Notes under the pieces: model-generated | The model's input: the letters and a program-made list of their open reading frames with translations, nothing else | Databases searched by the model: none | What the model was told of the DNA's origin: nothing | Translations under genes and position numbers: made by a program | Source of the DNA: Eledone cirrhosa | Taxonomy: Eukaryota | Length of the DNA stretch: 64,000 nucleotides | Reading direction: 5' to 3' | Assembly (NCBI GenBank): GCA_964016885.1 | Contig: OZ024741.1 | Coordinates: 278,194,001 to 278,258,000 of the forward strand | In this document: positions 6,155-56,679 of the stretch, piece after piece | Position numbering within the stretch: the stretch's first letter is position 1 | Layout: each line of letters starts with the position of its first letter

Positions 6155-6464
6155 TTAATGTGGTTGTTGTTATTGGTGTTGTAGTTTATAGTTTAATGTG
6201 GTTGCTGTTATTGGTGCTGTTACTGGCGTTATAGTTTAATATGGTTGTTGTTATTGGTATATGTGGTATAGAAAACCTGAAATAAAATAATTCATAACAG
6301 ACCCCCATCCCCCCAAAAATGCAAGCAAAATAAACAAAAAAACACAAACAAAATCTTTCTACTGAAAGATTTTGCTACTGTGCTGAAAATATTCACAATG
6401 TCAATTATATTTATTAAAGTTTTGCCTCTTAATTTATATTCATTTAAGTTTTTCCTCTTATATT

Positions 6465-7885: not shown

Positions 7886-8290
7886 GTAGGTTGTAATTCA
7901 AAGAGTTTGTGCATTTACCATTTTTATTTTAATCATCATCATCGTCATCATTTTGTAGTTTGTAGATTGAATTTGAAGTATTTTTTTGCGACCCTAGTCC
8001 TGTTTCTTTTCTGAAACACTGTATATTCAATTTATAGATAGTCATATATCTACATAGCAGGTTCATATGTTGTCAGTACTTGTTAATCTCAATGATTTGG
8101 TAAACGTATAGAATAGTGAATCAATATAAGGGATGTAATTTGAAAATTTTTTTTTTTGAAATGAGTACCTATGGTAACTATATATATGTGTGTGGTATAC
8201 ATATAGGTACTAACTCTATATGTGTGTATATATAATAACCATACCATACATCCTTATAAATGTATGTATAGGCATGTATTATATATATAT

Positions 8291-9465
8291 TCCATTGCCC
8301 AGATGGTTCTATAGAAATAGTGGACACCTTCCGTTATTTGGGTGACAAAATCAGCAGTGGTGGAGGGTGCTCTGAAAGTACAGTAGATAGAGTCAGAACG
8401 GGATGGAAAAAGTTCAGAGAGCTTATACCATTATTGGCCGCTAAAGGGTTCTCTCTAAAAATGAAAGGCAGGCTGTATGATGCCTGCATACGAACAGTGA
8501 TGTTACATGGCAGTGAGACATGGGCCTTGTGTGCAGAGGATCTACGCAGACTGGAGAAGAATGAAGCTTGCATGCTCCGCTGGTTGTGTAATAATTGTTT
8601 CTACTTTAGGCACAAGGCCAGCAATTACCCAGTGCATTACTGGTACTTTATTTTATCGACCCTGTAAGGATGAAAGGCAAAGTCAACCTCAGCGGCATTT
8701 GAACTCAGATCGTTAAGGGACGTAACTATGCTGGAAAGCATGGCGTCCGACCCTCTACCGATACTGCCAATCCACCGATGTGTAATAATACGCAAACGGC
8801 GAAGCTTAAATGAACTATGTGAGAAATTAGGAATAAGAGGGATCAGATGATGTTTACTCGAGAGAAGACTACGTTGGTATGGTCACGTGATGCGCATGAA
8901 AGACGACAGCTGTATAAAAAAGTGCAGGGCGATCAAAATAGCCGGTAGCTACGGAGTAGGCAGACCCAGAAAAACCTGGGACGATTTGATAAAATCCGAC
9001 CTCACACACTTACACCTTTCCAAGACAATGTCACTGGACCGAGATCTTTAGCGCTACGTAGTAATACAGAAGATCCGCCTTGCCTAAGTACAAAGCGAAA
9101 CCTACAGTCAGTAGGCACCTCTTAACCAAAATACACCCCCGTCCCATTGCTACGCCCACCGCCATCTACACCACCCCTTTCGATGTAAAGCTATGTTGGT
9201 ACCACAACATCCAGTCCTAAATAAATGCGGTCATGTAGGTGTCATGACAAAAAAACACAGTCCACGCTGTAATGTGGCCGTGTAGGTAACACGGTAAAAA
9301 CCTCCCAGTCCATACTGTAAACGTGGTTGGTGTTAGGAAGGGCATAAAGCCGTAGAAAACTCGCCAGACAGTCCTGAGCAAGACAACCAATCTTGCCTCA
9401 CGTGGGACAATTCCCGTCCAGACCCATGCTAGCGTGGAAAATGGACGTTAAGCGATGATGATGAT
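8291..9465 (+). mobile_element. 5'-truncated RTE family A copy interrupted by a SINE
   Basis: [22 protein letters not shown] motifs; (GAT)n tail; flanked by (TA)n. Confidence 0.9.
8596..8778 (-). mobile_element. SINE family 2 copy with 11-bp TSD
   Basis: TGTGTAATAAT at 8585-8595 and 8779-8789 flanks the reverse complement of the SINE. Confidence 0.85.
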
Positions 9466-12443: not shown

Positions 12444-13823
12444 GTAAGTAGAAAGCCTCTGCTTTTTGAAATTTGATGGGGTTTTTTCTTGCTATATTGC
12501 TGTTTAACCTCCATTTCAATTCTGATAAAGTAGTGATTATCCTGTCTTTTTAGAGGTATCTAGGGCTACATCTGGTTAGAATGTCTCAGGAAAGAATCGC
12601 TGGACAGATTTTACAGGCAAAACCAACTGGCAGGAGACCCAAGGGTAGAGTCCGAGCAAGATGGATAACATCCAGGAGCTCAGCTGTTCTCGCTTGAGGA
12701 TCCAGCTAGATTAATTGGAGATGGTGGCTTCTGACAAGACCCGCTGGATGGAGTGTTTGAGAACTATGCCTCTATGACCCTCTCAGGAATAAGTGGATGA
12801 AGAACTCGGACTGCATTATCTAATGAGTCCTTCCTCTTTTAGGATGGTAGTGTTTGACTGGCTGCTATTTCTAGCAAGTAAAGCAACCATGTAGATGTTC
12901 CACCATTGGCTCATACTCTGTACCATCTAGAGTAGTGACGAGTGTCTTTGATAAGTGAGTTGTTTCCTGTATCTTATGTCCAGTTGTTTTGATAAGATAA
13001 AACTGAATATAGAATATAACAAGAACAATGAGAATGTTTAACATCAACAGGATGTATTGATAGTTATTTCTAATTTGCTGCAGATGCTGTGATCTGCCTA
13101 CATTAAACTCAAGCATAGATTCACATCAGAACACAAACTCACGATGATGAACCTCCATTGGTTTTTGACAGGTGTTCCAGATGTTTGATCAAAGGATTAA
13201 CACCTGACTGAGCATTCCACAGACACATCTATCCTGAATGTAATTCTCGGGGAGATTCAGCATGATAGTGGCCCTTTGAATTATAATACAGTCAATCCAT
13301 TGGGCTTCCAAACAGTTTCCATCTACCCAATTTCATTCACAAGGTATGGGTCGACCCATTGTTATGGTAAATAACACTGTACCATGATACCAAACTGTGG
13401 GATCTAACTCAGGATCTAATGATTGTAAAACAAACCCCTTAACAATTCAGCCATGCTAGTGCACACACACACACAACAACAACAATGACTTTTACAGGAT
13501 TATTAGCAGTACCAGTCCACTAGTATATAATAAACATATAATAAAAATTACATCATCATCATCGTTTAACGTCCATCTTCCACGATAGCATGGGTTGGAC
13601 GGTTTTGTCCCACTTGAGGCGAGATTAGTCGGGAGACCGTATCTCGTTCATACAGAACTGTTTCTGGCAGGTTTTCTATGGCTGGATGCCCTTCCTAACA
13701 CCAACCACATTTACAGTGTGGACTGGGTGCTTTTTGTTGTGTCACCTACACAACCACTTTACAGTGGATGGAAATGGGAGAATGGAGTAGGGAGCATAGG
13801 GTGGGGTGTATATATATATATAT

Positions 13824-15063: not shown

Positions 15064-15224
15064 TCTCAGTATAATGTATATATTTAAATAATAATGAAAA
15101 TTGTGTACCCTGTTCAAGTACACTAAGTATAATGTTTATATACACAGTATAATGTATGTAATACAGTATAATGTACATATATATATATATATACAATATT
15201 AGTTATATATATATATATATATAT

Positions 15225-16252
15225 CATCATCATCATCATCATTGTTTAACGTCCATCTTCCACGCTTGCATGGGTTTGGACGGGAGGTTTCCCACTTGAG
15301 GCAAGATTTGTTGTCCTGCTCGTATAGGCCTGTCTGGCGGGTTTTCTACGGCTGGATGCCCTTCCTAACACCAACCACGTTTACAGTGTGGACTGGGAGG
15401 TTTTTACCGTGTTACCTACACGGCCACATTACAGTGTGGACTGTGTATTTTTTTTTTGTCGTGACACCTACACGACCTCATTTGTTTCGGACTGGATGTT
15501 GTGGTACCAACATAACTTCACATTTAAGGGGGTGGTGTGGATGGGGTGGGGGTAGTTGGGACGGGGGGGTATTTTGTTAGAGGTGTCTACTGACTGTAGG
15601 TTTCGCTTTGTACTTAGGCAAGGCGGGTCTTCTGTATGACTGTGTAGCGCCAAAGATCTCGGTCCAATGACATTGTCTTGGAGAGGTGTAAGTGTGTGAG
15701 GTCGGAATTTATCAAGTCGTCCCAGGTTTTTCTGGGTCTGCCTACTCCGTGGTTACTGTCTATTTTTATCGCCCTGCACTTTTTTATACAGCTGTCGTCT
15801 TTCATGCGCATCACGTGACCGTACCAACGTAGTCTTCTCTCGAGTAAACAACATCTGATCCCTCTTATTCCTAATTTCTCACTTAGTTCGTTTATGCTTT
15901 GTCGTTCACGTATATTACTATTACACATCCAGTGGAGCATGCAAGCTTCGTTTCTCTCCAGTCTGCGTATATCCTCTGCACACAATGCCCAGGTCTCACT
16001 GCCATGTAACATTGCTGTTCGTATGCAGGCATCATACAGCCTGCCTTTCATTTTTAGAGAGAACCCTTTAGCGGCCAATAGTGGTATAAGTTCGCTGAAC
16101 TTTTTCCATCCCGTTCTGACTCTATCTACTGTACTTTCAGAGCACCCTCCCCCACTGCTGATTTTGTAACGGAAGATGTCCACTATTTCTATAGTACCAT
16201 CTGTGCAATGGAATGAGCTAGTATTCTGTGGGCACTTGCTGCTACTTATTGC
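15225..16252 (-). mobile_element. 5'-truncated RTE family A copy
   Basis: ORF 15614-16306 ending KTRLA*; both ends abut (TA)n. Confidence 0.9.
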
Positions 16253-16361
16253 ACATATATATATATATAAGTAGAAGTTGTATTTAATTTGTTGGAAGTC
16301 CGACAAACATAAATGTTTATAACTGATTTAGAGCACTCAGCAAGCTACTGGAGTAAATATT

Positions 16362-17440: not shown

Positions 17441-17463
17441 ATTTAAATATATACATTATACTG

Positions 17464-18273: not shown

Positions 18274-18349
18274 GTTAGAGAAGCTAAATACCTGGATAAA
18301 ATCCTTCTCTTAATGCTTACCTGTGTTTTCTCTTTTATACTATATATAC

Positions 18350-20950
18350 ATCAGAGGACGTGACAGATGGACGGTCGTAAACACAAAAGCTTTCCCTAGT
18401 GAGGAATGTACATCCCAACATAGCTGAAAGTCCCCTCAACCAGTAACAGATTTAAAGATATTTTACTCAATGCCTACGACAGTAAAGAAGAACAGATAGA
18501 GACATTTAATGTAGAAGAGAACTGGGAGTTCCTAAAAAATAATTTACTAGAGGCAACAGATGAGGTCTGTGGCTGGAGTAAGACCTCAAGCAGGAGGAGA
18601 GTGACTTGGTGGTGGAACAATATGGTAGATAAAGCAGTTAAGGCCAAGAGACAGGCATGGAAAGAATGGAAGAACGGGGGGGGGGGGCAGCAGGGTACAT
18701 TACATAGAGACCAAGAGGGAAGCTAGGCGACAAGTATACTTAGCTAGGAGGGAAGCAGAGGATAGACAATTCAAGCATGTTTTGCAACGTGAGGACCAGA
18801 AACAGGAGGTATTCAAGATTGCGAGGCAGTGTGTCAGAGATAGTTGTGATGTCATTGGAGAGAAGTGTATCCGGAATGCCCTCACAAGTGCTGAGAAGAA
18901 AGATGCATGGAAGAGTCATTATGATAGATTACTAAATGAGGAGAATGCATGGGAAGAAGAGACCCTACCCCAAGTAGACCCTATAGAGGGACCAGCAGTA
19001 CAAGTCAGCAGCAGAGTAGTAAGTAAGGCAATCAAAGATATGAAGATGGGGAAGGCAACCAGTCCATCGGGTATAGCTGCCGAGATGCTGAAGGCATCTG
19101 GGTCTGTAGGTCACACTATAACCACACGTATCATTAACCAGGTAAAACTAGAAGGTGCCATACCAAAAGATTGGTGCAGTAGCATCATTGTCAACTGCTA
19201 CAAAGGTAAAGGCGATGCACTAGATAGAGGAAACTATAGAGGTATAAAGTTGATGGATCAGGTCATGAAAGTAACAGAAAGAGTTATAGCACAGCTGATT
19301 AGGGACCGGGTGAAAATAGACGAGATGCAATTTGGGTTTGTACCAGGAAGAGGCACCACTGATGCCCTCTTCCTTGTGAGGCAATTACAGGAAAAGTACC
19401 TAGCTAAAAGTAAGCCACTCTACTTGGCATTTGTCGACCTTGAGAAAGCCTTTGACAGAGTTCCACGTGCTGTAATCTGGTGGGCTCTTAGAAAACTAGG
19501 AGTAGATGAATGGCTTGTGAAAGCGGTACACGCCATGTATAGGGGAGCAGTCAGCAAAGTTAGGATTAGCAATGAGAATAGCGAGGAATTTAGCGTACAG
19601 GTTGGGGTCCACCAGGGCTCTGTTCTTAGCCCTCTCCTGTTCATCATAGTCCTGCAGGCAATAACGGAGGAGTTTAAGATCGGATACCCATGGGAACTCC
19701 TGTATGCTGATGACCTCGCACTCATAGCTGAATCTATGGTAGAACTAGAGAATAAATTTCAAACTTGGAAGCCGGGACTAGAAAGAAAGGGTCTCAAAGT
19801 CAACATGACAAAGACTAAGGTCCTTGTAAGTAGACGAGAAAACAGAACCCAGATCCCCTCAGGGAAATGGCCTTGCTCAGTATGTAGGAAAGGTGTAGGT
19901 AGGAACTCCATTCTCTGCCCCAAATGCAAACAATGGGTACACAAGAGATGTAGCGGGATCTCAGGAAGCTTAATTAAGAATGTAGGATTCACATGCAGCA
20001 GCTGTGCTGAGACCGCAAGCAGCAAACAGCCACAGGAAACAAGTACCACCAATCTCTGGGAGGGCTCTGTAGAAACAGTAGACAGCTTCTGCTACCTAGG
20101 TGACCGAATTAGCAGCGGAGGTGGGTGTTCAGAAAGTACAGTAACTAGGGTAAGAACGGGATGGAAGAAGTTTAGGGAACTACTACCACTGCTAGCTGCA
20201 AAAGGCTTCTCCCTCAGAATGAAAGGCAGACTGTATGATGCGTGTATCCGAACAGCGATGTTGCATGGTAGTGAGACCTGGGCGCTGAAGGTGGAAGACT
20301 TACGTAGATTAGAGAGAAACGAAGCCTGCATGCTCCGATGGATGTGTAACAGTAATATAAGTGAACGACAAAGCATAAATGAATTGAGAGAGAGACTGAG
20401 CATAAGAGGAATCAAATGCTGTGTGCAGGAGAGGCGGTTGCGCTGGTATGGACATGTGATGCGTATGAAGGATGACAGCTGCATAAAAAGGTGCAGAGCA
20501 CTAGAAGTTGATGAAACCGCGGAGTGGGGAGACCCAAGATGACCTGGGATGAGGTGATAAAAGCCGACCATACCCAATTACACCTCTCAAAGGCAATGAC
20601 ACACGACCGTGACTTCTGGTGTCACGCAGTAATACAGAGTACCCGACCTCCCATGGGTACAAGCTGAAGCATATAGACAATATGCCTCCACACCTCCCAC
20701 CGCAAGGTGGTCGTGGAGGTGCCATGGCAAAAAAGCACCCAGCCCACACTGTAAAGTGGACGTGTAGGCGCCACGAAAAAGCACCCAGCACTCACTGTAA
20801 ATGAGGTTGGTGTTAGGAAGGGCATCCAGCTGTAGAAATCAAGCCAAATCAGTTCTTGTATGAGCAAGGCATGGTCAGCCGACCAGACACTGCCCACAAC
20901 AGGACAACCAGTCTAACCCATGCTAGCGTGGAAGAACGGACGTAAAACGG

Positions 20951-20990
<40 letters not shown>
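18350..20990 (+). mobile_element. RTE family B, long 5'-truncated copy (RT plus PHD-like finger), with deletion and frameshifts
   Basis: ORF 18782-20542: [23 protein letters not shown]; (GAT)n tail abutting (TA)n. Confidence 0.95.
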
Positions 20991-30882: not shown

Positions 30883-31836
30883 AAGGTTTTTAGATAGATA
30901 TAATCCTCCAGTCCATTCTGTAAAGTGGTAATGCTGGTGCCACAATGAAAAGCACCCAGTCACCACTGTAAGACAGTAATTATAGTGTCACAATAAAAGC
31001 TTCCAGTCTACCCAGTCCCAATGTTGGATTCATGATAAAATATTTCCAGTACATGCTGTAAAGTGGTTGGGGTTAGGAATCTTACCACAGAAAATATTCC
31101 CCCAGACGTGTTGTAAGTTGGTTGGAATTAGGAAGAGCATCCATCTATAGAAACCAAGCCCCCAAAAACGAAGCATGTGAGCAAAACATGATGTGACAAT
31201 CTGTCTAACCCATGCAAGCATGGAAAAATAGCCATTTGACATTTATTATATTATGGTATGGACACGTACCCCCTGAAGGAGTTGTAGCTGTGCCATATTG
31301 TCAAACAGCATTTGTTAGGACATTTTAGAACCTAGCGAATCCCACCACCTCTCCAGGCACGAGTACACCAGATTTTTTCCAGAAAAGAATAGAGAGTGGG
31401 AAAGAGATATAGAGGAAGAATTGAACCCAGTACTAGACTGGTACTTTTTTTAATCGACCTTGAATAGATGAAAGGCAAAGATGACCTTGGTGAAATTTGA
31501 ATTCAGCGGAGAGCCAGAATGAATACTGCAAAGCATTCTAATGACTGCAAATTTACCAAATGATAATCACATTAAAATAAGTAGCTTAGTGTAATAAAAT
31601 CGGGGCCGGTTTTTGGTTTGAAAAGAGTTGAAGCAGATATATGAATTGCTTTATTTGATTGTATTTGGCTAAAAACAATTTTTCAATACTTAAAAAAGTG
31701 AGATTGTTCAACTGCTACTTTATAGTTGTATTTTGCTTTGACCTTTTGTTGAAAACTTTTGTATAAATGTATATTTGTATGTTGCTGTCCTTAGGTTTCC
31801 CTCGTGCCTTGCTGTGGGTTCATCCGGGATCCTGGA

Positions 31837-33698: not shown

Positions 33699-34043
33699 GG
33701 AGGCACATGGCTTAGTGGTTAGAGCATTGGCCTTGCAATCAAAAGGTTGTGAGTTCAATTCTCAGACCGGGTGATGTGTTGTTTCCTTGAGCAAGGCACT
33801 TTATTTCACATTGCTCCAGTTTACTCAGCTGTAGAAATGAGATGATAGGGACTGGGGTCCCTATCATTCCACTGTAAAGTGGTCGTGGAGGTGCCACGGC
33901 AAAAAAGCACCCAGCACTCACTGTAAATGAGGTTGGTGTTAGGAAGGGCATCCAGCTGTAGAAATCAAGCCAGAATCAGTTCCCGTCCCACCCTTGCAAG
34001 CAGGGAAAAGTGGACGTAAAATGAGATGATGATGATGATGATG
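33699..34043 (+). mobile_element. tRNA/CORE SINE family 1, full length
   Basis: A box TGGCTTAGTGG, B box GTTCAATTC, CORE-like CCTTGAGCAAG.CACTT, RTE-derived body and tail, (GAT)n end. Confidence 0.9.
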
Positions 34044-34077
34044 AGATATGTATATATAAATATATGTATATGTATAT

Positions 34078-34577: not shown

Positions 34578-36147
34578 ATCATCATCATCATCATCACCGT
34601 TTTACGTCCGTTCTTCCACGCTAGCATGGGTTAGACGGGTTGTCCTGTTGTGGGCAGTGTCTGGTCGGCTGACCATGCCTTGCTCATACAGGAACTGATT
34701 TGGCTTGATTTCTACAGCTGGATGCCCTTCCTAACACCAACCTCATTTACAGTGAGTGCTGGGTGCTTTTTCGTGGCACCTACACGTCCACTTTACAGTG
34801 TGGGCTGGGTGCTTTATTGCCGTGGCACCTCCACGACCACCTTGCGGTGGGGGGTGTGGGGGCATATTGTCTATATGCTTCAGCTTGTACCCATGGGAGG
34901 TCGGGTACACTGTATTACTGCGTGACGCCAGAAGTCACGGTCGTGTGTCATTGTCTTTGAGAGGTGTAATTGGGTAAGGTCGGCTTTTATCACCTCATCC
35001 CAGGTCATCTGGGGTCTCCCTACTCCGCGGTTTCCATCAATTTCTAGTGCTCTGCACCTTTTTATGCAGCTGTCATCCTTCATACGCATCACATGTCCAT
35101 ACCAGCTCAACCGCCTCTCCTGCACACAGCATTTGATTCCTCTTATGCTCAGTCTCTCTCTCAATTCATTTATTCTTTGTCGTTCACATATATTATTGTT
35201 ACACATCCATCGGAGCATGCAGGCTTCGTTTCTCTCTAATCTACGTAAGTCTTCCACCTTCAGCGCCCAGGTCTCGCTACCATGCAACATCGCTGTTCGG
35301 ATACACGCATCATACAGTCTGCCTTTCATTCTGAGGGAGAAGCCTTTTGCAGCTAGCAGTGGTAGTAGTTCCCTAAACTTCTTCCATCCCGTTCTTACCC
35401 TAGTTATTGCACTTTCTGAACACCCACCTCCGTTGCTAATTCGGTCACCTAGGTAGCAGAAGCTGTCTACTGTTTCTACAGAGCCCTCCCAGAGATTGGT
35501 GGTACTTGTTTCCTGTGGCTGTTTGCTGTTTGCTGTCTCAGCACAGCTGCTGCACGTGAATCCTACATTCTTAATTAAGCTTCCTGAGATCCCGCTACAT
35601 CTCTTGTGTACCCATTGTTTGCATTTGGGGCAGAGAATGGAGTTCCTACCTACACCTTTCCTACATACTGAGCAAGGCCATTTCCCTGAGGGAATCTGGG
35701 TTCTGTTTTCTCGTCTACTTACAAGGACCTTAGTCTTTGTCATGTTGACTTTGAGACCCTTTCTTTCTAGTCCCTGCTTCCAGGTTTGGAATTTATTCTC
35801 TAGTTCTACCATAGATTCAGCTATGAGTGCAAGGTCATCAGCATACAGGAGTTCCCATGGGCATCCGGTCTTAAACTCCTCCGTTATTGCCTGCAGGACT
35901 ATGATGAACAGGAGAGGGCTAAGAACAGAGCCCTGGTGGACCCCAACCTGTACGCTAAATTCCTCGCTATTCTCATTGCTAATCCTAACTTTGCTGACTG
36001 CTCCCCTATACATGGCTTGTACCGCTTTCACAAGCCATTCATCTACTCCTAGTTTTCTAAGAGCCCACCAGATTACAGCACGTGGAACTCTGTCAAAGGC
36101 TTTCTCAAGGTCGACAAATGCCAAGTAGAGTGGCTTACTTTTAGTTA
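34578..36147 (-). mobile_element. RTE family B, 5'-truncated, open to the stop (…TRPPMGTS*)
   Basis: RT YADD and PHD-like finger; (TA)n at both junctions. Confidence 0.95.
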
Positions 36148-36276
36148 GTATATATATATGTATATATATATGTATATATATATGTATATATATATGTATA
36201 TATAAATATATGTATATGTATATATATATGTATATGTATATATATATGTATATATATATATATGTATATGCATATA

Positions 36277-38559: not shown

Positions 38560-40282
38560 CATCATGATCATCATCATCATCGTTTAACGTCCATGTTCCA
38601 CGCTTGCATGGATTTGGATGGGAGTTTTGCTACTTGAGGCAAGAGTGGTTGTCTTGCCAGTGTGGGGCTGGGAGGTTTTTACTGTGTTGCCTACATGGCC
38701 ACATTACAGCGTGGACTGTCTGGCGGGTTTTCTACAGCTGGATGCCCTTCCTAACACCAACCACATTTACAGTGTGGGGTTGGGAGGTTTTTACCGTGTT
38801 GCCTACACGGCCACATTTATAGCGTGGACTGTGTGTTTTTTTTTTGTCGTGACACCTACACGATCTCATTTGTTTCGGCCTGGATTTTGTGGCAGCAACA
38901 TAACTTTACATTGAAAGGGGCGGTGTGGATGGGGTGGGGGTGGCGGGACGGGGGTGTATTTTGTTAGAGATGCCTACTGACTGTAGTAGGTTTTACTTTG
39001 TATTTAGGTAAGGCGGGTCTTCTCTATTACTGAGTACCGCCAAAGGTCTCGGTCCAGTGACATTGTCTTGGAGAGGTGTAAGTGTGTGAGGTCGGAATTT
39101 ATCAGTTCGTCCCAGGTTTTTCTGGGTCTGCCTACTCCGTGGTTACCGTCTATCTTTATTGCCCTGCACTTTGCTATACAGCTGTCGTCTTTCATGTGCA
39201 TCACGTGACCATACCAACGTAGCCTTCTCTCGAGTAAACAACATCTGATCCCTCTTATTTCTAATTTTTTCCTTAGTTCGTTTATGCTTTGCCGTTCGCG
39301 TATATTACTATTACACATCCATCGGAGCATGCAAGCTTCGTTCCTCTCTAGTCTGCGTATATCCTCTGCACACAATGCCCAGGTCTCACTGCCATGCAAC
39401 ATTGCTGTTCGTATGCAGGCATCATACAACCTGCCTTTCATTTTTAGGGAGAACCCTTTAGTGGCTAATAGTGGTATAAGCTCTCTGAACTTTTTCCATC
39501 CAGTTCTGACTCTAGCTACTGTACTTTCAGAGCACCCTCCCCCACTGCTGATTATGTCACCCAGGTAACGGAAGCTGTCCACTATTTCTATAGAACCCTC
39601 TGCGCAATTGAAAGAGCTAGTATTTTTGTGGGCACTTGCTGCTACTTATTGCACCAGAGCACCGCCCACATGTAAAATCTGTGTTCTTAGTTAGCTTACC
39701 TGTGATCCCACTACATCTATTATGCACCCATACTTTGCATTTGGGACATAAAATGGAGTTTCTACCTACGCCTTTCCTACACACTAAGCATGGCCATTTC
39801 CTGGAAGGGACCGGCGCCTTATTTTCTTTCCTACAAACTAGAACTTTAGTCTTAGCCAGGTTAATTTTAAGGCCTTTTGATTCTAGGCCGTGCTTCCATG
39901 TTTGGAATTTCTTCTCTAACTCGGCCATTGATTCAGCTATGAGCGTTAGATCATCTGCGTATAGGAGTTCCCATGGGCAGCCGGTCTTGAACTCCTCTGT
40001 TATAGCCTGAAGGGCAATAATAAATAGTAGGGGGCTAAGAACAGAGCCCTGATGGACACCAACTTTTACGCTAAACTCTTCACTATATTCGTTGTTAATT
40101 CTAACCTTGCTCACTGTTTCTTTATACATGGCTTGTATAGCTCTCACAAGCCATTCGTCAACACCTAGTTTTCTAAGAGCCCACCAGATAATGGAACGGG
40201 GGACTCTGTCGAAGGCTTTCTCCAAGTCGACAAAGGCTAAGTATAGGGGTTTACTTTTAGCTAGGTACTTCTCCTGTAGTTG
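38560..40282 (-). mobile_element. RTE family A, 5'-truncated, convergent with the previous copy
   Basis: ORFs 39617-40225 and 39004-39582; (CAT)n tail. Confidence 0.92.
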
Positions 40283-40659
40283 GCGATTTCAGCAGGCCGA
40301 GAGAGAGAGAGAGAGATGCCAATCCCTAAATTTAACCTGGCATAATTTTTTTTTCGGCCAAAATGGTTGCGGGAATATTATTTAGAATTATAGAAAGACA
40401 AACAATTATAAACATGATTTTTTGATTCTGGGGGATTGTAAGATATATAGATGCGAGGAGCAGAATTATTTTTAGAACAATGGTGAGACAGAACAGAATT
40501 ATAGAAAGCCAATTTTGAATACGATTTTTTGATTCTGGGGGATTGTAAGATATATAGATGAATGAACCGAATGTGGAGAGTTGAGAAGAAAATGAAATAT
40601 GTACGTTACATTTCGTAGAAGAAAACTGAACAAGCGACCATCAATAATAGGAGACAAAA

Positions 40660-41819: not shown

Positions 41820-43483
41820 GATAAATTAATAAAAACAATGAAATAAAAACAAAGAACAAGTTCCTTATATTAAAAAATTCATCATTTTACGATTGTTTCT
41901 AGGATGTATATGTGTGTTGGTATGTATATCATATAGATCTATGTAAAAATATTACAAATTATCAGAGGAACTATACATACCTTCACATATATATGCTGTC
42001 TTCAGAAATGATGAGATTTGTTTATTGAAAAAAACCCAACAAAGATTTAATATAAAAGGTCTGTTTGGGAACAGGTTTTGAATTGACCAATAGAAAAGTA
42101 GTTAGAGGTCAAGTTGATAGAATAGTGGTAGTAGAAATTTAATTTAGGGGTAGAGGAGTGCAGACTTATGTTTTGAATGAAAAGAATACTTTGGGGAGGA
42201 AAAGAGGTCAAGCCAGTGGAGGTACACGAAAAGTTGATGTTATTAAAGAATAATGTTAAAAACGAAGAAAAATAAAATTTTAGGGTAGGGGTATTAGTGA
42301 GAAATACCAATCTTATTTAAACCACAAGGAATCTAGATCTATAACAAGAAATTAAATTAATTGATAGGTATACTTATAGGGATAAATTTATATTAATTCA
42401 TATGAATGTGATAAATAAGAATTAGATGTTATTAAAGAGTGTCGTTAAAAACGAAGGAAAGTAAAATTTTGGGATAAGGGTAGTAGTGAGAAATACCAAT
42501 CTTATATAAACTACAAGGAATCTAGATTTATAACAGGAAATTAAATTAATTTATAGGTATACTTTTAGGTATTAATTTTAGGAAAAGAGAGCTGTAAGAG
42601 GGAAATAAAATTATGAAGTTCTCTGTAGTAAAGTACTAATTATAGGTTAACTAAATTAAAAAAACTAATTATAATAATATGTAAAATATAAGTGTAAGGT
42701 GTATATTAATTAGGTTTATAATATTTGAAGGTTCTTCTAATTCTATGATTGCAAGATATAATTAATTCCTATCGCTTATTTAGTAGGATATCCTTAGATT
42801 TCATGATTTCAAAAAGTAACTGTAGAATCAAACGAAATTGCCCATTAAAGGGAAATTGTCTTATTAATAACATAGTCTATGAATGTAAAATTAGCACTAA
42901 GGACTCCACTTATTCATATATAGGAGCTATGTCTAACCAATTTAAAGTAAGATTTAATACCCACAAACATAGTTTTAAAAATGCCGCATTAGCTAATACA
43001 ACATCCTTGGCTGAAACAATTAATAATTATAGAAAGAAGAATATTGATTACAACCTGACCTGGAGTGTGCTCAAAAGGGCCACCCCTTATCAAAATAACA
43101 GATACGAGTGTAGGTTATGCTCCCAGGAACTTTTTGAAATCATGAAATCTAAAGATATCCTATTAAATAAGCGACAGGAATTTCTACTACCACTATTCTA
43201 TCAACTTGACCTCTAACTACTTTTCTATTGGTCAATTCAAAACCTGTTCCCAAACAGACCTTTTATATTAAATCTTTGTTGGTTTTTTTCAATAAACAAA
43301 TCTCATCATTTCTGAAGACAGCATATATATGTGAAGGTATGTATAGTTCCTCTGATAATTTGTAATATTTTTACATAGATCTATATGATATACATACCAA
43401 CACACATATACATCCTAGAAACAATCATAAAATGATGAATTTTTTAATATAAGGAACTTGTTCTTTGTTTTTATTAATTTATC
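41820..43483 (+). mobile_element. Penelope-like element remnant: GIY-YIG ORF between ~300-bp inverted pLTR arms
   Basis: ORF 42749-43216: CPLKGNCLINNIVY..YIG..FKVRFNTHKHSF..CRLC; arms 41820-42140 and 43179-43483 are reverse complements. Confidence 0.85.
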
Positions 43484-46400
43484 ATCATCATCATCATCAT
43501 TTTACGTCCGCTTTTCCCTGCTTGCAAGGGTGGGACGGGTCTTATTCAGCACAGCATCTCTCCACTCGTCACGGTCCCTCGTCATCTCCACCGTGAGCTT
43601 CAATGATCTGAGGTCTGTTCTCACCACCTCCGCCCATGTTTTTCGTGGTCTACCTCTACCACGTCTTCCTTCAACTGGCATTTCCTGGCACTTCTTCACC
43701 CATCGGTCATCCTCCATGCGCATCACATGTCCATACCACCTCAGTCTCCTCTCCCGTACACTACATTCTATCCCTCTCAGACACAGTTTCTCTCTCAACA
43801 CATTTATGCTGGGTCGTTCACGCACATTTACACTGCACATCCAACGGAGCATGCTTGCCTCATTTCTCTCCAGCCGTCGCATATCTTCTGCGGTAGCTGC
43901 CCATGTCTCACTACCATGCAGCATCGCGCTCCTCACACAGGCATCATACAACCGGCCTTTCGTACGCAGGGAGAAACCCTTCTTCGTCAACAGAGGAAGC
44001 AGCTCCCTAAACTTCTTCCAACCCGTCCTTATTCTAGATACTATGGCCTCGGAACACCCTCCTCCCATGCTAATCTGATCTCCTAGGTACCGGAAGCTAT
44101 CCACCACTTCTATAGCGCCCTCTCGCATTTGAAAAATGTGTCTATCAGTGCGACTTCTACTGTCTAATTTCCCTGTACATCTACTGCATACATATTTCTC
44201 CCTACCTGTTAGTTTGCCTGCTATCCCGCTACATCTCTTGTGTACCCAGGACCTACATTGTGTGCATTTTATAGAATTTATGCCAGTTCCTTTTCTGCAT
44301 ATCGAACATGGCCATTTCCCTGACGGAATCAGGGTTTTGTCCTCTTTTCTACTCATCAACACTTTTGTCTTAGCTAGATTTACTCTCAGTCCTCTTGCTT
44401 CCAACTGCTGTTTCCATAGCCGGAATTTATTCTCTAGCTCCTCTACTGATTCTGCCATAAGAGCCAGATCGTCAGCATAGAGAAGTTCCCATGGACAGCC
44501 AGTCTTAAACTCCTCTGTTATGGCTTGGAGGACTATAATGAACAAGAGCGGGCTGAGGACCGAACCCTGATGTACTCCTACTTGTATCTGGAATTCCTCA
44601 CTAAACTCCATTCCTACCCTGACTTTACTGAGAGTACCTCTGTACAAAGTTTGCACTGTCCTTACAAGCCATTCCTCAACACCCAGCTTCCTTAGGGACC
44701 ACCAGATGACAGATCGGGGTACCTTATCAAAGGCCTTCTCTAGGTCAACAAAGGCTAAGTATAGTGGCTTATTCTTCTCTAAGAACCTCTCTTGCATTTG
44801 TCTCACCAAGAAGAGGGCATCTGTTGTACTCTTCCCAGGCACAAAACCAAACTGCATCTCATCTAGTTTGACCCTTTCTCTAATTAGTTGTGCTAGAATC
44901 CTTTCTGCCACTTTCATAACCTGATCTATCAGTTTTATACCCCTATAATTGCTCCTCTCCAAAGCATCCCCTTTACCTTTGTAGCAATTTATGAGAATAC
45001 TGCTGCACCAGTCTTTGGGTATGACACCACCATATATAGCCTGATTGATTATGCGTGCAACCAGTTTAGTGCCTACGTCCCCTGATGCCTTCAGCATCTC
45101 AGCAACTATTCCCGATGGTCCGGCCGCCTTACCATTTTTCATTTCCCTAATCGCCTCTTGGACCCTATATTCGTCAATCTCAATAGCTGGTCCCTCTGTC
45201 GGATCTACCAAGGGTAATTTCTCTCTCTCCCATTCGTTCTCCACATTCATCAGTCTCTCATAATGACATTTCCAGGCCTCCTTTTTCTGGTCATTCGTGA
45301 CACTAAGTACACCGGCATCATCCCAGACACATTTATCACCAACAACATCCTGATTTGCATTGACACACTGCCTTGCAATGTGGAACACCGCACGCCTCTG
45401 ATCTTCCCGTCGCAGAACATTGGCAAACCTCCTACTCTCTGCCTCCCTGCGTGCTAAGTACACCTGACGTCTAGCTTCTCTCTTAGTGGCTGTATATTCT
45501 TCCCTACTCCCACCCTTATTCCAAGCCTTCCATGCTAGTCTTTTGTCTCTAATAGCCTTATCTACACTGCTGTTCCACCACCAGGTCACTCTCTGTCTGG
45601 TTGGAGCTCTGCTCCAGCCACAGGTTTCATCAGTAGCCTTCAGCAAGTTGTCACGTAAGAACTTCCAGTTATTATCTATGTCATACGTCTCTAAATCGTC
45701 TTCTTTTTCGTCATATACATCTTGAAGGGCTTTCCTAAATTTGAATTTTAGTGAAAGGTCTTTTAGCTTCCAGACCTTTCTTCTCCACACCTTCCTATAT
45801 GTCTCATTCCATCTCTTGCTTACTGAGATATCACTAACAACTAACCTATGCTGTGGGGTACATTCTTCCCCAGGGTATGCCTTGGTATTAGACACTATCT
45901 GCCTGTCCCGCTGCCTAACTAGCAGGAAGTCAATCTGGCTTATGTGCTCACCAGATTTGTAGGTTATTAGGTGATTGGCAGGTTTCTGGAAGTTTGTGTT
46001 GCAAATAGTCAATGTACTTGCATCACAAAATTCAAGAAGTCTCACTCCTTCTTCATTTCTTGAACCGTAACCGTGCCCACCATGTACCCCAGTGTAACCA
46101 TCCTGGAGCTGTCCAACATGACCATTGAAGTCTCCTGCTAGCATAACGATGTCTCCGTCCTCTGTCATTGTGGTTGTTTGCAAAAGTTGCTCATAAAAGC
46201 AGTCTTTCTCATCTTTGCCTAGGCCTGCTTGGGGAGCATAGACCGAGATGATTGTCAGTAGTCTCCTACCTACAACTAATCTAAGCTTAATTATTCGATT
46301 ACTAACTCGAACTACCTCTATTGTCTTATTGATCCATTTCTCAGCCAGGAAAATGCCTACTCCCCCTAACCCATCATCCTTACCTACCCAGAATAGCTTA

Positions 46401-46790
46401 TAGCTAAGACGCTTGCCTACGACTAGTCTCGCAGAGGCACCCCTCCATCTCACCTCTTGCATGCAGCACACATCCACCTGCCTTCTCTCCAGCATCTCCG
46501 CTATTTCAGCAGACCTACCTCTGAGAGTGCCAACATTAAGTGTTGCAACTCTGAGATGCGACGTCTTCATATTTTTCTATGCTGTTTTGTTGCTGTGCTG
46601 ATAAGCTTTTTGGCATTGATACACTGGTTGGATGCCCTTCCTAACACCAGCGCCACTTTACAGCATGGAGTGGGTGCTTTTATTTGTGCCACCAGCACTA
46701 GAGAGGATGTCTTACTAGACTCAAGGGCCCTCTCTACCCCTCCATTTTACAGCATGGTCATTAAAAAAAAAAAAAAAAAAAAAAAGGAAA
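43481..46790 (-). mobile_element. Apparently full-length RTE LINE including a ~220-nt 5'UTR
   Basis: 5'UTR has the GGTGTTAGGAAGGGCATCC module and is preceded by an oligo(T) on the element strand. Confidence 0.85.
43502..46570 (-). CDS. Intact RTE-clade ORF (family C), 1022 aa: APE endonuclease, RT, PHD-like finger
   Basis: TLNVGTL, MQEVRW, GDFNGHVG, IDFLL (APE); [20 protein letters not shown] (RT); no stops; (GAT)n tail right after the stop. Confidence 0.96.
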   Translation of the reverse strand: MKTSHLRVATLNVGTLRGRSAEIAEMLERRQVDVCCMQEVRWRGASARLVVGKRLSYKLFWVGKDDGLGGVGIFLAEKWINKTIEVVRVSNRIIKLRLVVGRRLLTIISVYAPQAGLGKDEKDCFYEQLLQTTTMTEDGDIVMLAGDFNGHVGQLQDGYTGVHGGHGYGSRNEEGVRLLEFCDASTLTICNTNFQKPANHLITYKSGEHISQIDFLLVRQRDRQIVSNTKAYPGEECTPQHRLVVSDISVSKRWNETYRKVWRRKVWKLKDLSLKFKFRKALQDVYDEKEDDLETYDIDNNWKFLRDNLLKATDETCGWSRAPTRQRVTWWWNSSVDKAIRDKRLAWKAWNKGGSREEYTATKREARRQVYLARREAESRRFANVLRREDQRRAVFHIARQCVNANQDVVGDKCVWDDAGVLSVTNDQKKEAWKCHYERLMNVENEWEREKLPLVDPTEGPAIEIDEYRVQEAIREMKNGKAAGPSGIVAEMLKASGDVGTKLVARIINQAIYGGVIPKDWCSSILINCYKGKGDALERSNYRGIKLIDQVMKVAERILAQLIRERVKLDEMQFGFVPGKSTTDALFLVRQMQERFLEKNKPLYLAFVDLEKAFDKVPRSVIWWSLRKLGVEEWLVRTVQTLYRGTLSKVRVGMEFSEEFQIQVGVHQGSVLSPLLFIIVLQAITEEFKTGCPWELLYADDLALMAESVEELENKFRLWKQQLEARGLRVNLAKTKVLMSRKEDKTLIPSGKWPCSICRKGTGINSIKCTQCRSWVHKRCSGIAGKLTGREKYVCSRCTGKLDSRSRTDRHIFQMREGAIEVVDSFRYLGDQISMGGGCSEAIVSRIRTGWKKFRELLPLLTKKGFSLRTKGRLYDACVRSAMLHGSETWAATAEDMRRLERNEASMLRWMCSVNVRERPSINVLREKLCLRGIECSVRERRLRWYGHVMRMEDDRWVKKCQEMPVEGRRGRGRPRKTWAEVVRTDLRSLKLTVEMTRDRDEWRDAVLNKTRPTLASREKRT

Positions 46791-47437
46791 CTTATTGACA
46801 CGACTCACACACTAATACTCATGCATACAAACCACAACCACACATACCAACACTCATTCATGCATACAATCACGCACACCACTCACAAACATATATATAT
46901 ATACATATATTACCGACAGTACTGATAGAAAATCAAAATCAAAGTCAAAATCAAAATCAAAATCAAAATCGTCAAAATCACTATCATGTCAACTGTTGAC
47001 CTTTCCCAGTCCAGTTCGGCTTGTATATAATAACAATAACAATAATAATTGTTTGTTTACGCTGGTAATGGCGGTGGTGGATGGTGTCAGTGTGGTGGTG
47101 GTGGATGGTATCAGCGTGGTGGTGGTGGATGGTCAGTGATGGTGGTGGCAGTTGTTGGTGCTGTAGTTGTTATTGTAGTTGTTACTGTTGTTGTTGTCCT
47201 TCATTTCACTGCTGCTGTTGCTGCAGACAATGGTGTTGATGCTGTTATTGCTGTCGCATATATACAAATACATACACACACATTCAACACAGACGATGGT
47301 GTTGTTGCTGTTGTTGTTGTTGTTGGTGTTGCTGCTGTTGTTGTTGTAGTTGTTGCTGTGTTGAAATCTGGTCGCATCCACTGAGATATACATATACACA
47401 CACATACACATATGTATATACACATACATACATCAAA

Positions 47438-50327: not shown

Positions 50328-50389
<62 letters not shown>

Positions 50390-50815: not shown

Positions 50816-51039
50816 TATATATACATATATATATATATATATGTATATATGTATATGTAGAAAGAGTGAAGAATAACATGGTCAACAGTACAAAAAAGGG
50901 TTTTATTTACAGTCTAACAATTGTTTCAATGATTAACTGGATTACCTATAACAATATTTTGTTATCCCTTATATGTATATATATACATGTATCATCATCA
51001 TCATCATGTATATGTATATATATATCATCATCATCATGA

Positions 51040-51366
51040 TTTCATTTTACGTCCGCTTTTCCCTGCTTGCAAGGGTGGGACGGGAACTGATTCTGGCTTG
51101 ATTTCTACAGCTGGATGCCCTTCCTAACACCAACCTCATTTACAGTGAGTGCTGGGTGCTTTTTTGCCATGGCACCTCCACGACCACTTTACAGTGGAAT
51201 GATAGGGACCTCAGTCCTATCATCTCATTTCTACAGCTGAGTAAACTGGAGCAATGTGAAATAAAGTGTCTTGCTCAAGGAAGCAACACATCACCCGGTC
51301 TGAGAATTGAACTCACAACCTTTTGATTGCAAGGCCAATGCTCTAACCACTAAGCCATGTGCCTCC
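51040..51366 (-). mobile_element. SINE family 1, full length
   Basis: Reverse complement of 33699-34043. Confidence 0.9.
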
Positions 51367-52499: not shown

Positions 52500-54810
52500 A
52501 TCATCATCATCACCGTTCTACGTCCGTTCTTCCACGCTAGCATGGGTTAGACGGGTTGTCCTGTTGTGGGCAGTGTCTGGTCGGCTGACCATGCCTTGCT
52601 CATACAGGAACTGATTTGGCTTGATTTCTACAGCTGGATGCCCTTCTTAACACCAACCTCATCTACAGTGAGTGCTGGGTGCTTTTTTTTCGTGGCGCCT
52701 ACATGTCCACTTTACTGTGTGGGCAGGGTGCTTGTTTGCCGTGGCACCTCCAGAACTACTTTGCATGGGAGGAGGTGGGGACATATTGTCTATATGCTTC
52801 AGCTTTGGCTTGTTCCTGTGGGAAGTGGGTTCTTCTGTATTACTGCGTGATGCCAGAGGTCACAGTCGTGTGTCATCGCCCTTGAGCGGTGCATTTTTGT
52901 AAGGTTGGCTTTTATCACGTCATCCCAGGTCTTCTTGAGTCTCCCTATTCCGTGGCTTCCATCGACTTTTAGTGCTCTGCACCTTTTTATGCAGCTGTCA
53001 TCCTTCATACGCATCACATGTCCATACCAATGTAACCTCCTCTCCTGAGCACAGCATTTGATTCTTCCTCTTATGCTCAGTCTCTCTCTCAGTTCGTTCA
53101 TGCTTTGCTGTTCGCGTATATTACTATTACACATCCATCAGAGCATGCAAGCTTCGTTTCTTTCTAATCTGCGCAAGTCTTCTACAGACAGCGCCCAGGT
53201 CTCACTACCATGTAACATTGCTGTTTGTATACACGCATCATACAGTCTGCCTTTCATTTTGAGGGAAAAGCCTTTTGCAGCTAGCAGTGGCAATAGCTCC
53301 CTGAACATCTTCCATCCCGTTCTTACCCTAGTTATTGTACTTTCCGAACACCCACCTCCGCTGCTAATTCGGTCACCTAGGTAGCAGAAGCTGTCTACTG
53401 TTTCTACAGAGCCCTCCCAGAGTTTGGTGGTGCTTGTTTCCTGTGGCTGTTTACTGCTTGCTGTCCCAGCGCAGCTGCTACATGTGAAGCCTACATTCTT
53501 AGTTAAGCTTCCTGAGATCCCACTACATCTCTTGTATACCCATTGTTTGCATTTGGGGCAGAGGATGGAGTTCCTACCTACACCTTTCCTACATACTGAG
53601 CAAGGCCATTTCCCTGAGGGGATCTGGGTTCTGTTTTCTTGTCTACTTACAAGAACCTTAGTCTTTGTCAGGTTGACTTTGAGACCCTTTCTTTCTAGTC
53701 CCATGCTTGGAATTTCTTCTCTAGTTCCACCATAGATTCAGTTATAAGTGCGAGATCATCCGCATATAGGAGTTTCTCTGTTATTGCCTGCAAAATTATA
53801 ATGAACAAGAGAGAGCTAAGAACAGAGCCCTGGTGGACACCGATCTGTATGCTAAATTCCTTGCTATAGTCATTGTTAACCCTAACTTTGCTGATTGCTC
53901 CTCTATGCATGGCTTGTACAGCTGTCACAAGCCATTCATTTACTCCTAGTTTTCTAAAAGCCTACCAGATTATAGCACGCGGAACTCTGTCGAAGGATTT
54001 TTCCAGATCGACAAATGCCAGGTAGAGCGGCTTACTTTTAGCTAGGTACTTTTCCTGTAACTGCCTCACAAGGAAGAGGGCATAAGTGGTGCCTTCACCT
54101 GGTACAAACCCAAATTGCATCTCATCTAGTTTTATCCGGTCCCTAATCAACTGTGCTATAACTCTTTCCGTTACTTTCATGACCTGGTCCATCAGCTTTA
54201 TACCTCTATAGTTTCCTCTATCTAGTGCATCACCTTTACCCCTGTAGCGGTTGATAATGATACTGCTGCACCAATCCTTTGGTATGAATCCTCTAGTATT
54301 ACCTGGTTAACAAAATGTGTGGTGTTGGTGTGACCTACCGACCCAGATCCCTTCAGCATCTCTGCATCTATACCCGATGGACCAGCTGCCTTCCCCCTCT
54401 AGATATCTTTGATTGCCTTACTTACTATGCTGCTGCTGACTTGTACTGCTGGCCCCTCTATTGGGTCTATTTGGGGCAGGGTCTCTTTTTCCCATGTATT
54501 CTCCTCATTTAGTAATCTTTCATAATGGGTCTTCCACGCATCTTTCTTCTCAGCACTTGTGAGGGCAAGCTCACCTTTATCATTCAATGACATCACAATT
54601 CTCTCTGACACACTGCCTTGCAATCTTGAACACCTCCTGTTTCTGGTCCTCACGTTGCAAAACATGCTTGATGAATATTCTATCCTCTGCTTCCCTTCTA
54701 GCTAAGTATACTTGTCGCCTTGCTTCCCTCCTGGTCTCTATGTAATGTACCCTGCTTCTCCCGTTCTTCCATTCTTTCCATGCCTGTCTCTTAGCCTTAA
54801 CTGTCTCATC

Positions 54811-54815
<5 letters not shown>
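52500..54815 (-). mobile_element. RTE family B-related copy, 5'-truncated and decayed
   Basis: Fragmented ORFs 52799-54915 with RT and PHD-like motifs; (TA)n at both ends. Confidence 0.92.
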
Positions 54816-54885
<70 letters not shown>

Positions 54886-54894
54886 TATATATAT

Positions 54895-55840
54895 CATCAC
54901 CATCATCATCATCAACGTTTAACGTCCGTGTTCCACGCTTGCATGGGTTTGGACGGGGGTAGTCCCACTTGAGGCAAGAGTGATTGTCTTGCTCGCATAG
55001 GACTGTCTGGCAGGTTTTCTACAGTTGGATGCCCTTCCTAACACCAACCACATTTACAGTGTGGGTCTGGGAGGTTTTTACCGTGTTGCCTACACGGCCA
55101 CATTACAGCGTGGACTGTGTGTTTTTTTGTCGTGACACCTACACGATCTCATTTGTTTCGGCCTGGATGGTGTGGCACCAACACAACTTTACATAGAACG
55201 GGGTGGCGTGGATGGGGTGGGGGTGGTGGGACGGGGGGGGGGGGGGTATTTTGTTTGAGATGCCTACTGGTTGTAGTAGGTTTTACTATGTATTTAGGTA
55301 AGGCGGGTCTTCTCTGTTACTGAGTACCGCCAAAGGTCTCGGTCCAGTGACATTGTCTTGGAGAGGTGTAAGTGTGTGAGGTCAGAGTTTATCAGCTCGT
55401 CCCAGGTTTTTCTAGGTCTGCCTATTCCGTGGCTACTGTCTATCTTTATTGCCCTGCACTTTGTTATACAGCTATCGACTTTCATGCGCATCACGTGTCC
55501 ATACCAACGTAGCCTTCTCTCGAGTAAACAACATCTGATCCCTCTTATTTCTAATTTTTTCCTTAGTTCGTTTATGCTTTGCCGTTCACGTATATTACTG
55601 TTACACATCCAGCGGAGCATGTAAGCTTCGTTCCTCTCTAGTCTGCGTATATCCTCTGCACACAATGCCCAGGTCTCACTGCCATGCAGCATTGCTGTTC
55701 GTATGCAGGCATCGTACAACCTGCCTTTCATTTTTAGGGAGAACCCTTTAGCGGCTAATAGTGGTATAAGCTCTCTGAACTTTTTCCAACCAGTTCTGAC
55801 TCTAGCTACTGTACTTTCAGAGCACCCTCCCCCACTGCTG
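54895..55840 (-). mobile_element. RTE family A, 5'-truncated
   Basis: ISSGGGCSES...EKTRLT*; (CAT)n tail. Confidence 0.9.
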
Positions 55841-55959
55841 ATATATATACATATATACTGTATATATATATATACATATATATATACAGACATATATGTA
55901 TATATATGTATATATATGTCTGTGTATATATATGTGTAGATATATATATATAAAGAGAG

Positions 55960-56405
55960 AGTGAGAATAGGATTGGCAAGATGACTTGGGATGAGGTGAT
56001 AAAAGCTGACCTTACCCAACTCTCAAAGTCAATGACACACGACCGTGACTTCTGGCGTCACGCAGTAATACAGGGTACCCGACCTCCCATGGGTACATGC
56101 TGAAGCATATAAACAATATGCCCCCACTCCCCCCACCGCAAGGTGGTCGTGGAGGTGCCACGGCAAAAAAGCACCCAGCCCACACTGTAAAGTGGACGTG
56201 TAGGCGCCACGAAAAAGCACCCAGCACTCACTGTAAATGAGGTTGGTGTTAGGAAGGGCATCCAGCTGTAGAAATCAAGCCAGATCAGTTCCTGTATGAG
56301 CAAGGCATGGTCAGCCGACCAGACACTGCCCACAACAGGACAACCCGTCTAACACATGCTAGCGTGGAAGAACGGACGTAAAACGGTGATGATGATGATG
56401 ATGAT
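55960..56405 (+). mobile_element. RTE family B 3' end
   Basis: Matches 20540-20990. Confidence 0.88.
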
Positions 56406-56679
56406 GTGTAGATGCTAGTTAAGGTAGCTTAAAATGGAATGAGAATAAGAAGAAAGCAAGAACGGGCGGGGGGGGGGGGGCGAGTTCCTCATCAGTTATC
56501 TACTGGGGGTCTAAAATATATATATATACATATGAATGTATGTATAGTATATTTGGCAATATACTGTATGTTTAATTAAAAACATTTTGAAGACCTTGTG
56601 CTATTATTTTAAAGTAGTGACTATGTATGTATATATGTATGTATATATATATGTATGTATGTATATATGTATGTATATA

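What the first reader, a model, noticed from the sequence alone, without database searches (positions are those of the whole stretch)
46571..46790. Same module lies in the 5'UTR of the intact RTE but in the 3'UTR of families A and B: LINEs that captured a second tail
Seen: the GGTGTTAGGAAGGGCATCC module is upstream of the ATG in family C, whose ORF runs straight into the (GAT)n tail. In families A and B (e.g. 20670-20990, 9090-9465) the module is downstream of the stop and is followed by a second RTE-type tail (CCCGTCTAACCCATGCTAGCGTGGAA...). Established: RTE 5'UTRs contribute middle bodies to bipartite elements and SINEs. Inference: families A and B arose when an autonomous RTE read through into, and adopted, a bipartite element or SINE as its new 3' end, the reverse of the usual LINE-to-SINE direction.
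Basis: partly seen in the sequence, partly recalled or inferred. Interest (0 to 1): 0.7.

Follow-up and report, generated by a model that had tools for sequence, protein, structure and literature searches.

The report
Retrotransposon moved its leader signal downstream
In this animal genome, one old lineage of jumping genes carries at its tail end a conserved signal that its sister lineage and more distant relatives keep in front of the gene; it likely moved there once, and it is likely an RNA handle that works from either end.

Summary
The module sits 59 nt before the ATG of RTE family C, but after the stop codon and before a second tail in families A and B. The junction is fixed in 11 of 11 aligned A and 11 of 11 aligned B copies. 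Outgroups have the module 5' and short tails, so the 3' position is derived. Three corrections: (1) it happened once, long ago: A, B and older families D and E form one RT clade (100/98), sister to C, and their 3' cassette tree matches; (2) A and B have no module in the part of the leader recovered, so it was moved, not just added; (3) the window's SINE is not the donor: it nests inside A and mostly carries a C tail. No free donor was found in this genome, so read-through versus template switch is open. The core is 43-44 of 46 nt identical between A and B, whose four-fold sites match at 38%, which points to selection. Function is untested. Earlier scan notes on other pieces of this genome cover the repeat-unit pseudoknots and satellites, not the relocation.

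The parts
43502..46570 (-). Family C single ORF, 1022 aa: AP endonuclease, RT, PHD finger; its last codons overlap the RTE tail
43481..43501 (-). Family C (GAT)n end, directly after the stop codon
46630..46648 (-). Module core in the family C 5'UTR, 59 nt before the ATG
46649..46702 (-). Single ~50-nt repeat unit (possible H-type pseudoknot plus hairpin) upstream of the core in C
46571..47420 (-). Family C leader kept in this copy (5'-truncated; full leader about 1.6 kb); upstream end approximate
18326..20667 (+). Family A ORF, 5'-truncated and broken; stop at 20665-20667 just after a decayed first tail
20668..20989 (+). Family A 3'UTR: C-rich linker, two repeat units, core (20809-20827), spacer, second RTE tail, (GAT)n
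34580..36148 (-). Second family A copy, 97% identical to the first over 1.6 kb
52500..54818 (-). A' subfamily copy with the same 3' cassette (88% to A)
55977..56406 (+). Short family A 3' end
8289..9465 (+). Family B 3' end (stop about 9085-9087, core 9329), interrupted by another short repeat at about 8590-8775
38560..40285 (-). Family B copy with 3' cassette
15210..16254 (-). Family B copy with 3' cassette
54890..55842 (-). Family B copy with 3' cassette
33700..34045 (+). tRNA-headed SINE: head, middle domain, A-type unit and core, C-type tail
51013..51360 (-). Same SINE; further copies at about 17644-17968 (-) and 57790-58150 (+)
4401..4660 (-). Older family D1 3' cassette, 5'-truncated
13549..13780 (-). 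Older family D2 3' cassette, 5'-truncated
30900..31245 (+). Oldest family E 3' cassette, 5'-truncated
6448..6945 (+). Older C-lineage 3' end: ORF runs directly into the tail, no module

Best explanation
One RTE lineage (families E, D, A, B) carries a conserved module and a second tail after its stop codon, while its sister lineage C and outgroups carry the module before the ORF; the module likely moved once, when the ancestor took on an internally deleted 'module plus tail' piece as its 3' end, and it is likely an RNA element that the element's own protein needs wherever it lies on the transcript. Shown: the positions, the fixed junctions, one clade, matching RT and cassette trees, and conservation against near-saturated silent sites. 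Inferred: the joining step (read-through, template switch, or deletion in a head-to-tail pair). After it the old tail decayed at the ORF end, the 5' copy became redundant and the leader was replaced. Also inferred: every 5'-truncated copy longer than about 200 nt is a ready-made bipartite element, which a tRNA-headed SINE then took from A before swapping to the C tail. Confidence is about 0.85 for a single 5'-to-3' relocation, 0.6 for a bipartite-type origin of the cassette and 0.5 for the RNA-handle function.
For: Junction: the same in 11 of 11 A and 11 of 11 B copies aligned (11 of 20 fetched loci each). Leaders: no module in the 512-1304 nt before the endonuclease in 0 of 27 A loci, nor in 520-860 nt shared by 4 B copies. 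RT tree: 31 rows with a 3' module form one branch (100/98), 9 direct-tail rows the sister (100/98), against 12 outgroups. Cassette tree: same order, E then D1, A, (D2, B); 3 A-tailed SINEs fall inside A (100/99). Outgroups: full-length L101 has the core 236 nt before the endonuclease. 4 of 120 homologous proteins read through the module at their N-terminus and none at the C-terminus. 0 of 21 informative outgroup 3' ends have it before the terminal repeat. 26 of 120 homologues end in the tail-encoded peptide, which the A second tail still spells out. Free module-plus-tail elements: 11 of 23 core hits in metagenome loci. Selection: four-fold sites match at 38% (A-B), 33% (A-C) and 32% (B-C), while the core is 43-44 of 46 nt identical between A and five B copies. 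The core sits about 1.5 kb from C's sharp 5' end and is kept in a non-coding SINE after its tail swap, which fits neither a 5' ribozyme nor a translation signal.
Against: No free donor was found in this genome, and no (GAT)n remnant lies between the first tail and the cassette. The true 5' ends of A and B were not reached, so a module further upstream is not excluded; D and E leaders were not seen. One A locus (L414) has a SINE-type module fused to its truncated leader. Only one outgroup locus (L101) shows the 5' position directly in DNA, and many outgroup loci look like copies from few hosts. Similarity of C's post-core 45 nt to the cassette spacer is weak (0.61-0.68 against 0.57 +/- 0.05 shuffled), and E is no closer to C than the others. 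The module does not fold better than shuffles (z from -0.8 to +1.2), and covariation in the repeat unit is weak. Tree rows are tblastn segments laid on C coordinates, 40 of 169 ends were chosen, and 11 of 52 rows are under half filled. Exchange between families could also keep the core alike. No functional data.
Confidence: 0.62

Rival explanations
1. Same single relocation, but the module is a DNA promoter or enhancer. At the 3' end it would drive transcription of downstream or tandem copies (HeT-A-like; recalled) or act from a distance.
For: In metagenome loci the free elements begin sharply about 30 nt before the core, as an internal promoter would. The core is conserved in sequence rather than in fold. 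Kojima 2018 speculates that conserved RTE 5'UTR pieces bind transcription regulators.
Against: In C the core lies about 1.5 kb downstream of the sharp 5' end. The SINE has its own tRNA-like head yet keeps the module after the tail swap. Modules upstream of A leaders are 9 in the same and 5 in the opposite orientation in 30 loci, no clear excess.
Confidence: 0.2
2. One reading: A and B each adopted an existing SINE or bipartite element, and the SINE seen in the window belongs to the donor family.
For: A-tailed SINEs exist (L285, L289, L032) and match the A 3'UTR at 88-95%. Elements of this kind often sit next to each other's tails (hits 17636 and 17762).
Against: One clade in both trees. The SINE nests inside A and is only 62-79% like B, D and E. 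0 of 60 older cassette copies have a SINE head.
Confidence: 0.08
3. The 3' position is ancestral for this genome's lineage, and C regained a 5' module from an upstream neighbour's 3'UTR while losing its own 3'UTR.
For: E is very old (copies about 72-81% alike). The repeat unit is shared by C and the 3'-module families but is not seen in L101.
Against: It needs two extra events, including an exact rejoining of ORF end and tail that matches the outgroup state. Older C-lineage copies also end directly (20 of 20).
Confidence: 0.06
4. The 3' module is a passenger kept alike by recombination among very abundant copies.
For: Unit duplications, deletions and chimeras are common.
Against: The cassette tree follows the RT tree. 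Spacer and units differ by family while only the core stays fixed.
Confidence: 0.04

Closest known systems
Bipartite non-autonomous RTE elements and RTE-derived SINEs (Kojima 2018, PMC5786205: parts 1-4 of 5 of the text read, supplement searched; Kojima 2020, PMC7245038: passages)
   Same: A piece of RTE 5'UTR joined to an RTE tail; SINEs that carry both; tail exchange in SINEs.
   Different: Here the bipartite cassette is the 3'UTR of a protein-coding LINE lineage, and the SINE took it from a LINE 3'UTR rather than from a 5'UTR. The exact core was not found in the 2018 text supplement.
Ingi-3_AC and R4-1_ADi with an RTE/Ceph-like piece (Kojima 2018)
   Same: A LINE that holds a conserved RTE UTR piece possibly gained by recombination with a SINE.
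   Different: Those pieces are in the 5'UTR, and no second tail or relocation is described.
RTE-2_OV of Octopus vulgaris (Petrosino 2022, PMC9115989: passages; 4 of the supplementary files not searched)
   Same: [quoted passage not shown]
   Different: Described with a 5'UTR of about 600 nt and a C2H2 finger; no module or 3' cassette in the passages read; its sequence was not found in the files searched.
5'UTR replacement in mammalian L1 (stated in PMC4758252, passage); mouse L1 monomer leaders and the HeT-A 3' promoter (recalled, not checked)
   Same: Leader turnover; A's leader is a tandem of 330-400-nt monomers.
   Different: Those cases do not move the old leader element to the 3' end together with a duplicate tail.

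Membership tests
RTE-clade non-LTR retrotransposon (family C; A, B by homology) | Single ORF with AP endonuclease and RT, no ORF1 | tested here: met
   Pfam matches; no credible upstream ORF in the 1.6-kb C leader
RTE-clade non-LTR retrotransposon (family C; A, B by homology) | Short tandem-repeat 3' end and variable 5' truncation | tested here: met
   (GAT)n ends and ragged 5' ends
RTE-clade non-LTR retrotransposon (family C; A, B by homology) | RT phylogeny groups it with named RTE references | not tested
RTE-clade non-LTR retrotransposon (family C; A, B by homology) | Target-site duplications | not tested
   Most ends lie in (TA)n tracts; not examined
Bipartite RTE-derived unit (the 3' cassette) | 5' part homologous to an RTE 5'UTR | tested here: met
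   Unit and core align with C's 5'UTR, core with L101
Bipartite RTE-derived unit (the 3' cassette) | 3' part homologous to the RTE ORF-end tail | tested here: met
   The second tail still spells the C-terminal peptide of outgroups
Bipartite RTE-derived unit (the 3' cassette) | Exists as a free element with its own fixed 5' end | tested here: not met
   Not found in this genome (limited samples); such elements do occur in metagenome loci
tRNA-derived SINE with LINE partner | tRNA-like head, fixed 5' end, tail shared with a LINE | tested here: met
   Rfam tRNA 28.5 bits against a cut-off of 29; common start and C or A tail; ARAGORN found no tRNA gene
Self-cleaving ribozyme of RTE 5' ends | Match to a known ribozyme family at the element's 5' end | tested here: not met
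   No Rfam ribozyme among listed hits for the window, the module, a full C leader or six outgroup loci; in C the module is about 1.5 kb from the 5' end
H-type pseudoknot (repeat unit) | Both stems pair and covary | tested here: inconclusive
   87% of cells paired; 3 pairs with two-sided change, reached by 129 of 500 shuffles; none in stem 2; some changes are CpG-type

The most novel reading that the evidence does not exclude
RTE proteins of this clade grip their RNA by two handles, the tail and this module, and the module works from any position. One lineage packed both into a 250-nt 3' cassette, which freed its 5' end for new leaders and turned every truncated copy into a ready-made SINE body. 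This would explain why RTE-derived SINEs keep a '5'UTR' piece beside the tail.
Probability: 0.4. Interest if true: 0.78.

Novelty: new variant of a known kind. Interest (0 to 1): 0.6.

Why it matters
It is not known why RTE-derived SINEs and bipartite elements keep a piece of LINE 5'UTR. This genome holds a natural experiment: sister lineages with the same conserved element before or after the ORF, plus a SINE that kept it through a tail swap. That narrows the possible functions and gives direct swap-and-delete constructs. It also shows that a SINE body that looks like an RTE 5'UTR can come from a LINE 3'UTR. Ten paper searches found no description of such a relocation; the library lacks most subscription papers and Repbase entries, so this is not proof of novelty.

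Tried and rejected
Rfam scans found no ribozyme or other credible family, only microsatellite-driven miRNA hits and a borderline tRNA at the SINE heads. Single-strand folding is no better than shuffles. The idea that the oldest family E is closest to C's 5' module was tested and not supported. The shared ATGGATG motif in A and B leaders is not an N-terminal extension of the ORF, since in-frame stops follow. A DNA search of the genome with the SINE head returned nothing because common words are skipped; an exact 31-mer was used instead. No RNA holder was listed, and contigs laid on family A were not used as evidence. A search for tandem excess upstream of A leaders was inconclusive (9 against 5). 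The exact core occurs in two papers whose titles are unrelated (listing only). RTE-2_OV's sequence was not in the supplementary files searched (files 5-8 not searched). A search of earlier scan notes for the relocation found 0. In one search, one D1 and one D2 'RT upstream' case are unrelated C copies.

Full report
Observation. The window is a 64-kb piece of a 3.0-Gb animal genome (G000:C2); the look of an octopod is recalled and noted by an earlier scan finding, not tested here. The 19-nt core occurs 26 times and never in 100 shuffles. In family C it lies at 46648-46630 (-), 59 nt before the ATG at 46570. The 1022-aa ORF has endonuclease, RT and PHD matches and ends in the tail itself, followed by (GAT)n. 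In A and B the ORF ends in a decayed version of that tail, then come a C-rich linker, two or three ~48-nt units, the core, a spacer and a second tail.

Are these real families? Twenty A and twenty B loci were fetched from the genome. In the 11 A and 11 B copies aligned at the ORF end, the junction is the same within each family. C leaders are common: 1,009 exact matches to a 25-mer. Of the first 30, 28 run into the endonuclease by motif, one more by tblastn, one is cut by a microsatellite, and none is followed by a tail. Eight extended C copies share about 1.55-1.6 kb of leader and then diverge, so the module is near the ATG and far from the 5' end, and the window copy is 5'-truncated.

Do A and B keep the module at the front? 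Eight A and five B copies reach the start of the endonuclease. Their leaders are unrelated to C's and hold no module. In 30 further A-leader loci, 0 of the 27 that reach the endonuclease have a module in the 512-1304 nt before it. The nine same-strand modules further upstream belong to SINEs or LINE 3' ends; one of them (L414) is fused to a truncated leader. A's leader is a tandem of 330-400-nt monomers. The true 5' ends of A and B were not reached.

How old, and how many events? Older module-bearing repeats in the window are 3' ends of older LINEs: RT lies within 700 nt upstream in 6 of 30 D1 and 14 of 30 D2 loci (one in each set an unrelated C copy), and 0 of 60 have a SINE head. Family E has RT, a longer UTR with internal tail-like copies, then the cassette. 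In an RT tree of 40 chosen ends out of 169 plus 12 outgroup proteins, all 31 rows with a 3' module form one branch (100/98) and the 9 direct-tail rows its sister (100/98). The rows are tblastn segments on C coordinates and 11 are under half filled. A DNA tree of the cassette gives the same order (bootstrap rough). The cassette has therefore been inherited with the RT since one event.

Polarity. The full-length outgroup L101 (46% identity) has the core 236 nt before the endonuclease. L135 is a likely second case, as its core precedes sequence that resembles the pre-endonuclease stretch of L138. Four of 120 homologous proteins translate through the module at their N-terminus, a fifth match is doubtful, and none does so at the C-terminus. 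Of 23 outgroup loci that reach the ORF end, 2 are too short; none of the other 21 has the module before the terminal repeat (L165 has one beyond it, in a separate element). 26 of 120 homologues end in the tail-encoded peptide, which the A second tail still spells. Older C copies also end directly (20 of 20). Many outgroup loci probably come from few hosts. Still, 5' is the ancestral and 3' the derived state.

Donor. The cassette has the layout of a bipartite element, and 11 of 23 core hits in metagenome loci are free module-plus-tail elements with a common start. None was found in this genome. The window's SINE (10,925 exact 31-mer matches) is not the donor. Of the first 30 copies, 28 have the C tail, one a partly deleted C tail and one the A tail; two more A-tailed copies turned up in other loci. 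All three A-tailed copies nest inside A (100/99) and are 88-95% like A but 62-79% like B, D and E. The SINE took A's 3'UTR and later swapped tails. No (GAT)n remnant separates the old tail from the cassette, so read-through, template switch and deletion in a head-to-tail pair cannot be told apart.

Function. Four-fold sites match at 38% between A and B and at 32-33% against C, while RT proteins are 68-78% identical, so both lineages stayed under selection for coding. The core region is 43-44 of 46 nt identical between A and five B copies, and the 19-nt core is the same in C. It is kept near the ATG in C, in the 3'UTR of E, D, A and B, in a non-coding SINE after its tail swap, and in free elements elsewhere. 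What these share is being on an RNA copied by the RTE protein, so an RNA recognition or packaging element is the most likely role. This is inference. A promoter or enhancer role remains possible. No ribozyme family matches, folding is unremarkable, and covariation in the unit's possible pseudoknot is weak.

Comparison and verdict. Bipartite RTE elements, RTE-derived SINE bodies and tail exchange are known (PMC5786205, parts 1-4 of 5 read; PMC7245038, passages). A protein-coding lineage whose 3'UTR is such a cassette, with the 5' copy apparently lost, was not found in ten paper searches; passages of PMC9115989, PMC4758252 and PMC13174262 do not describe it. Repbase and most subscription papers could not be seen. 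It is a new variant of a known kind with a clear, testable question about what the conserved RTE UTR piece does. Interest 0.6.

Noticed in passing
L318, L304, L312, L195, L198, L184; small array at window 2040-2300: The ~48-nt unit of the 3' cassette expands into minisatellite arrays (24 to at least 56 units in 3-kb loci).
   Followed up: partly
L419-L426; window 46571-47420: Family C has a ~1.6-kb leader with a sharp 5' end, microsatellite-like tracts, an internal ~130-nt duplication and a poly-T run; long for an RTE.
   Followed up: partly
L400, L401, L353 (A leader): Family A's leader is a tandem of 330-400-nt monomers.
   Followed up: partly
P0001 residues 757-800: A PHD finger sits just after the RT core; many homologues share it.
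   Followed up: no
L293, L292, L314, L307 (upstream of the unit array): Old E-type 3'UTRs hold one to three extra internal copies of the RTE tail motif, suggesting repeated tail duplication.
   Followed up: partly
window 40883-41013 and 38758; L063, L064, L074, L080: A B subfamily carries a 112-nt tandem duplication or triplication that includes the core.
   Followed up: no
A and B leaders, about 190-260 nt before the endonuclease (L097, L063): A shared ATGGATG motif may start a short upstream ORF; in A its stop overlaps the likely start codon of the main ORF.
   Followed up: partly
window 8590-8775 and 17252-17441: A second short repeat family without the module; one copy interrupts the B element.
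   Followed up: no
window 22385-23658 (-) and 49531-50330 (-): Fragments of other elements: a distant RT match (24-30% to C) and a coding-like stretch not examined.
   Followed up: no
L279 (minus strand, near 2106) and L297 (near 2834): Single A/B-type copies in which the cassette is deleted and the ORF end is joined almost directly to the final tail.
   Followed up: no
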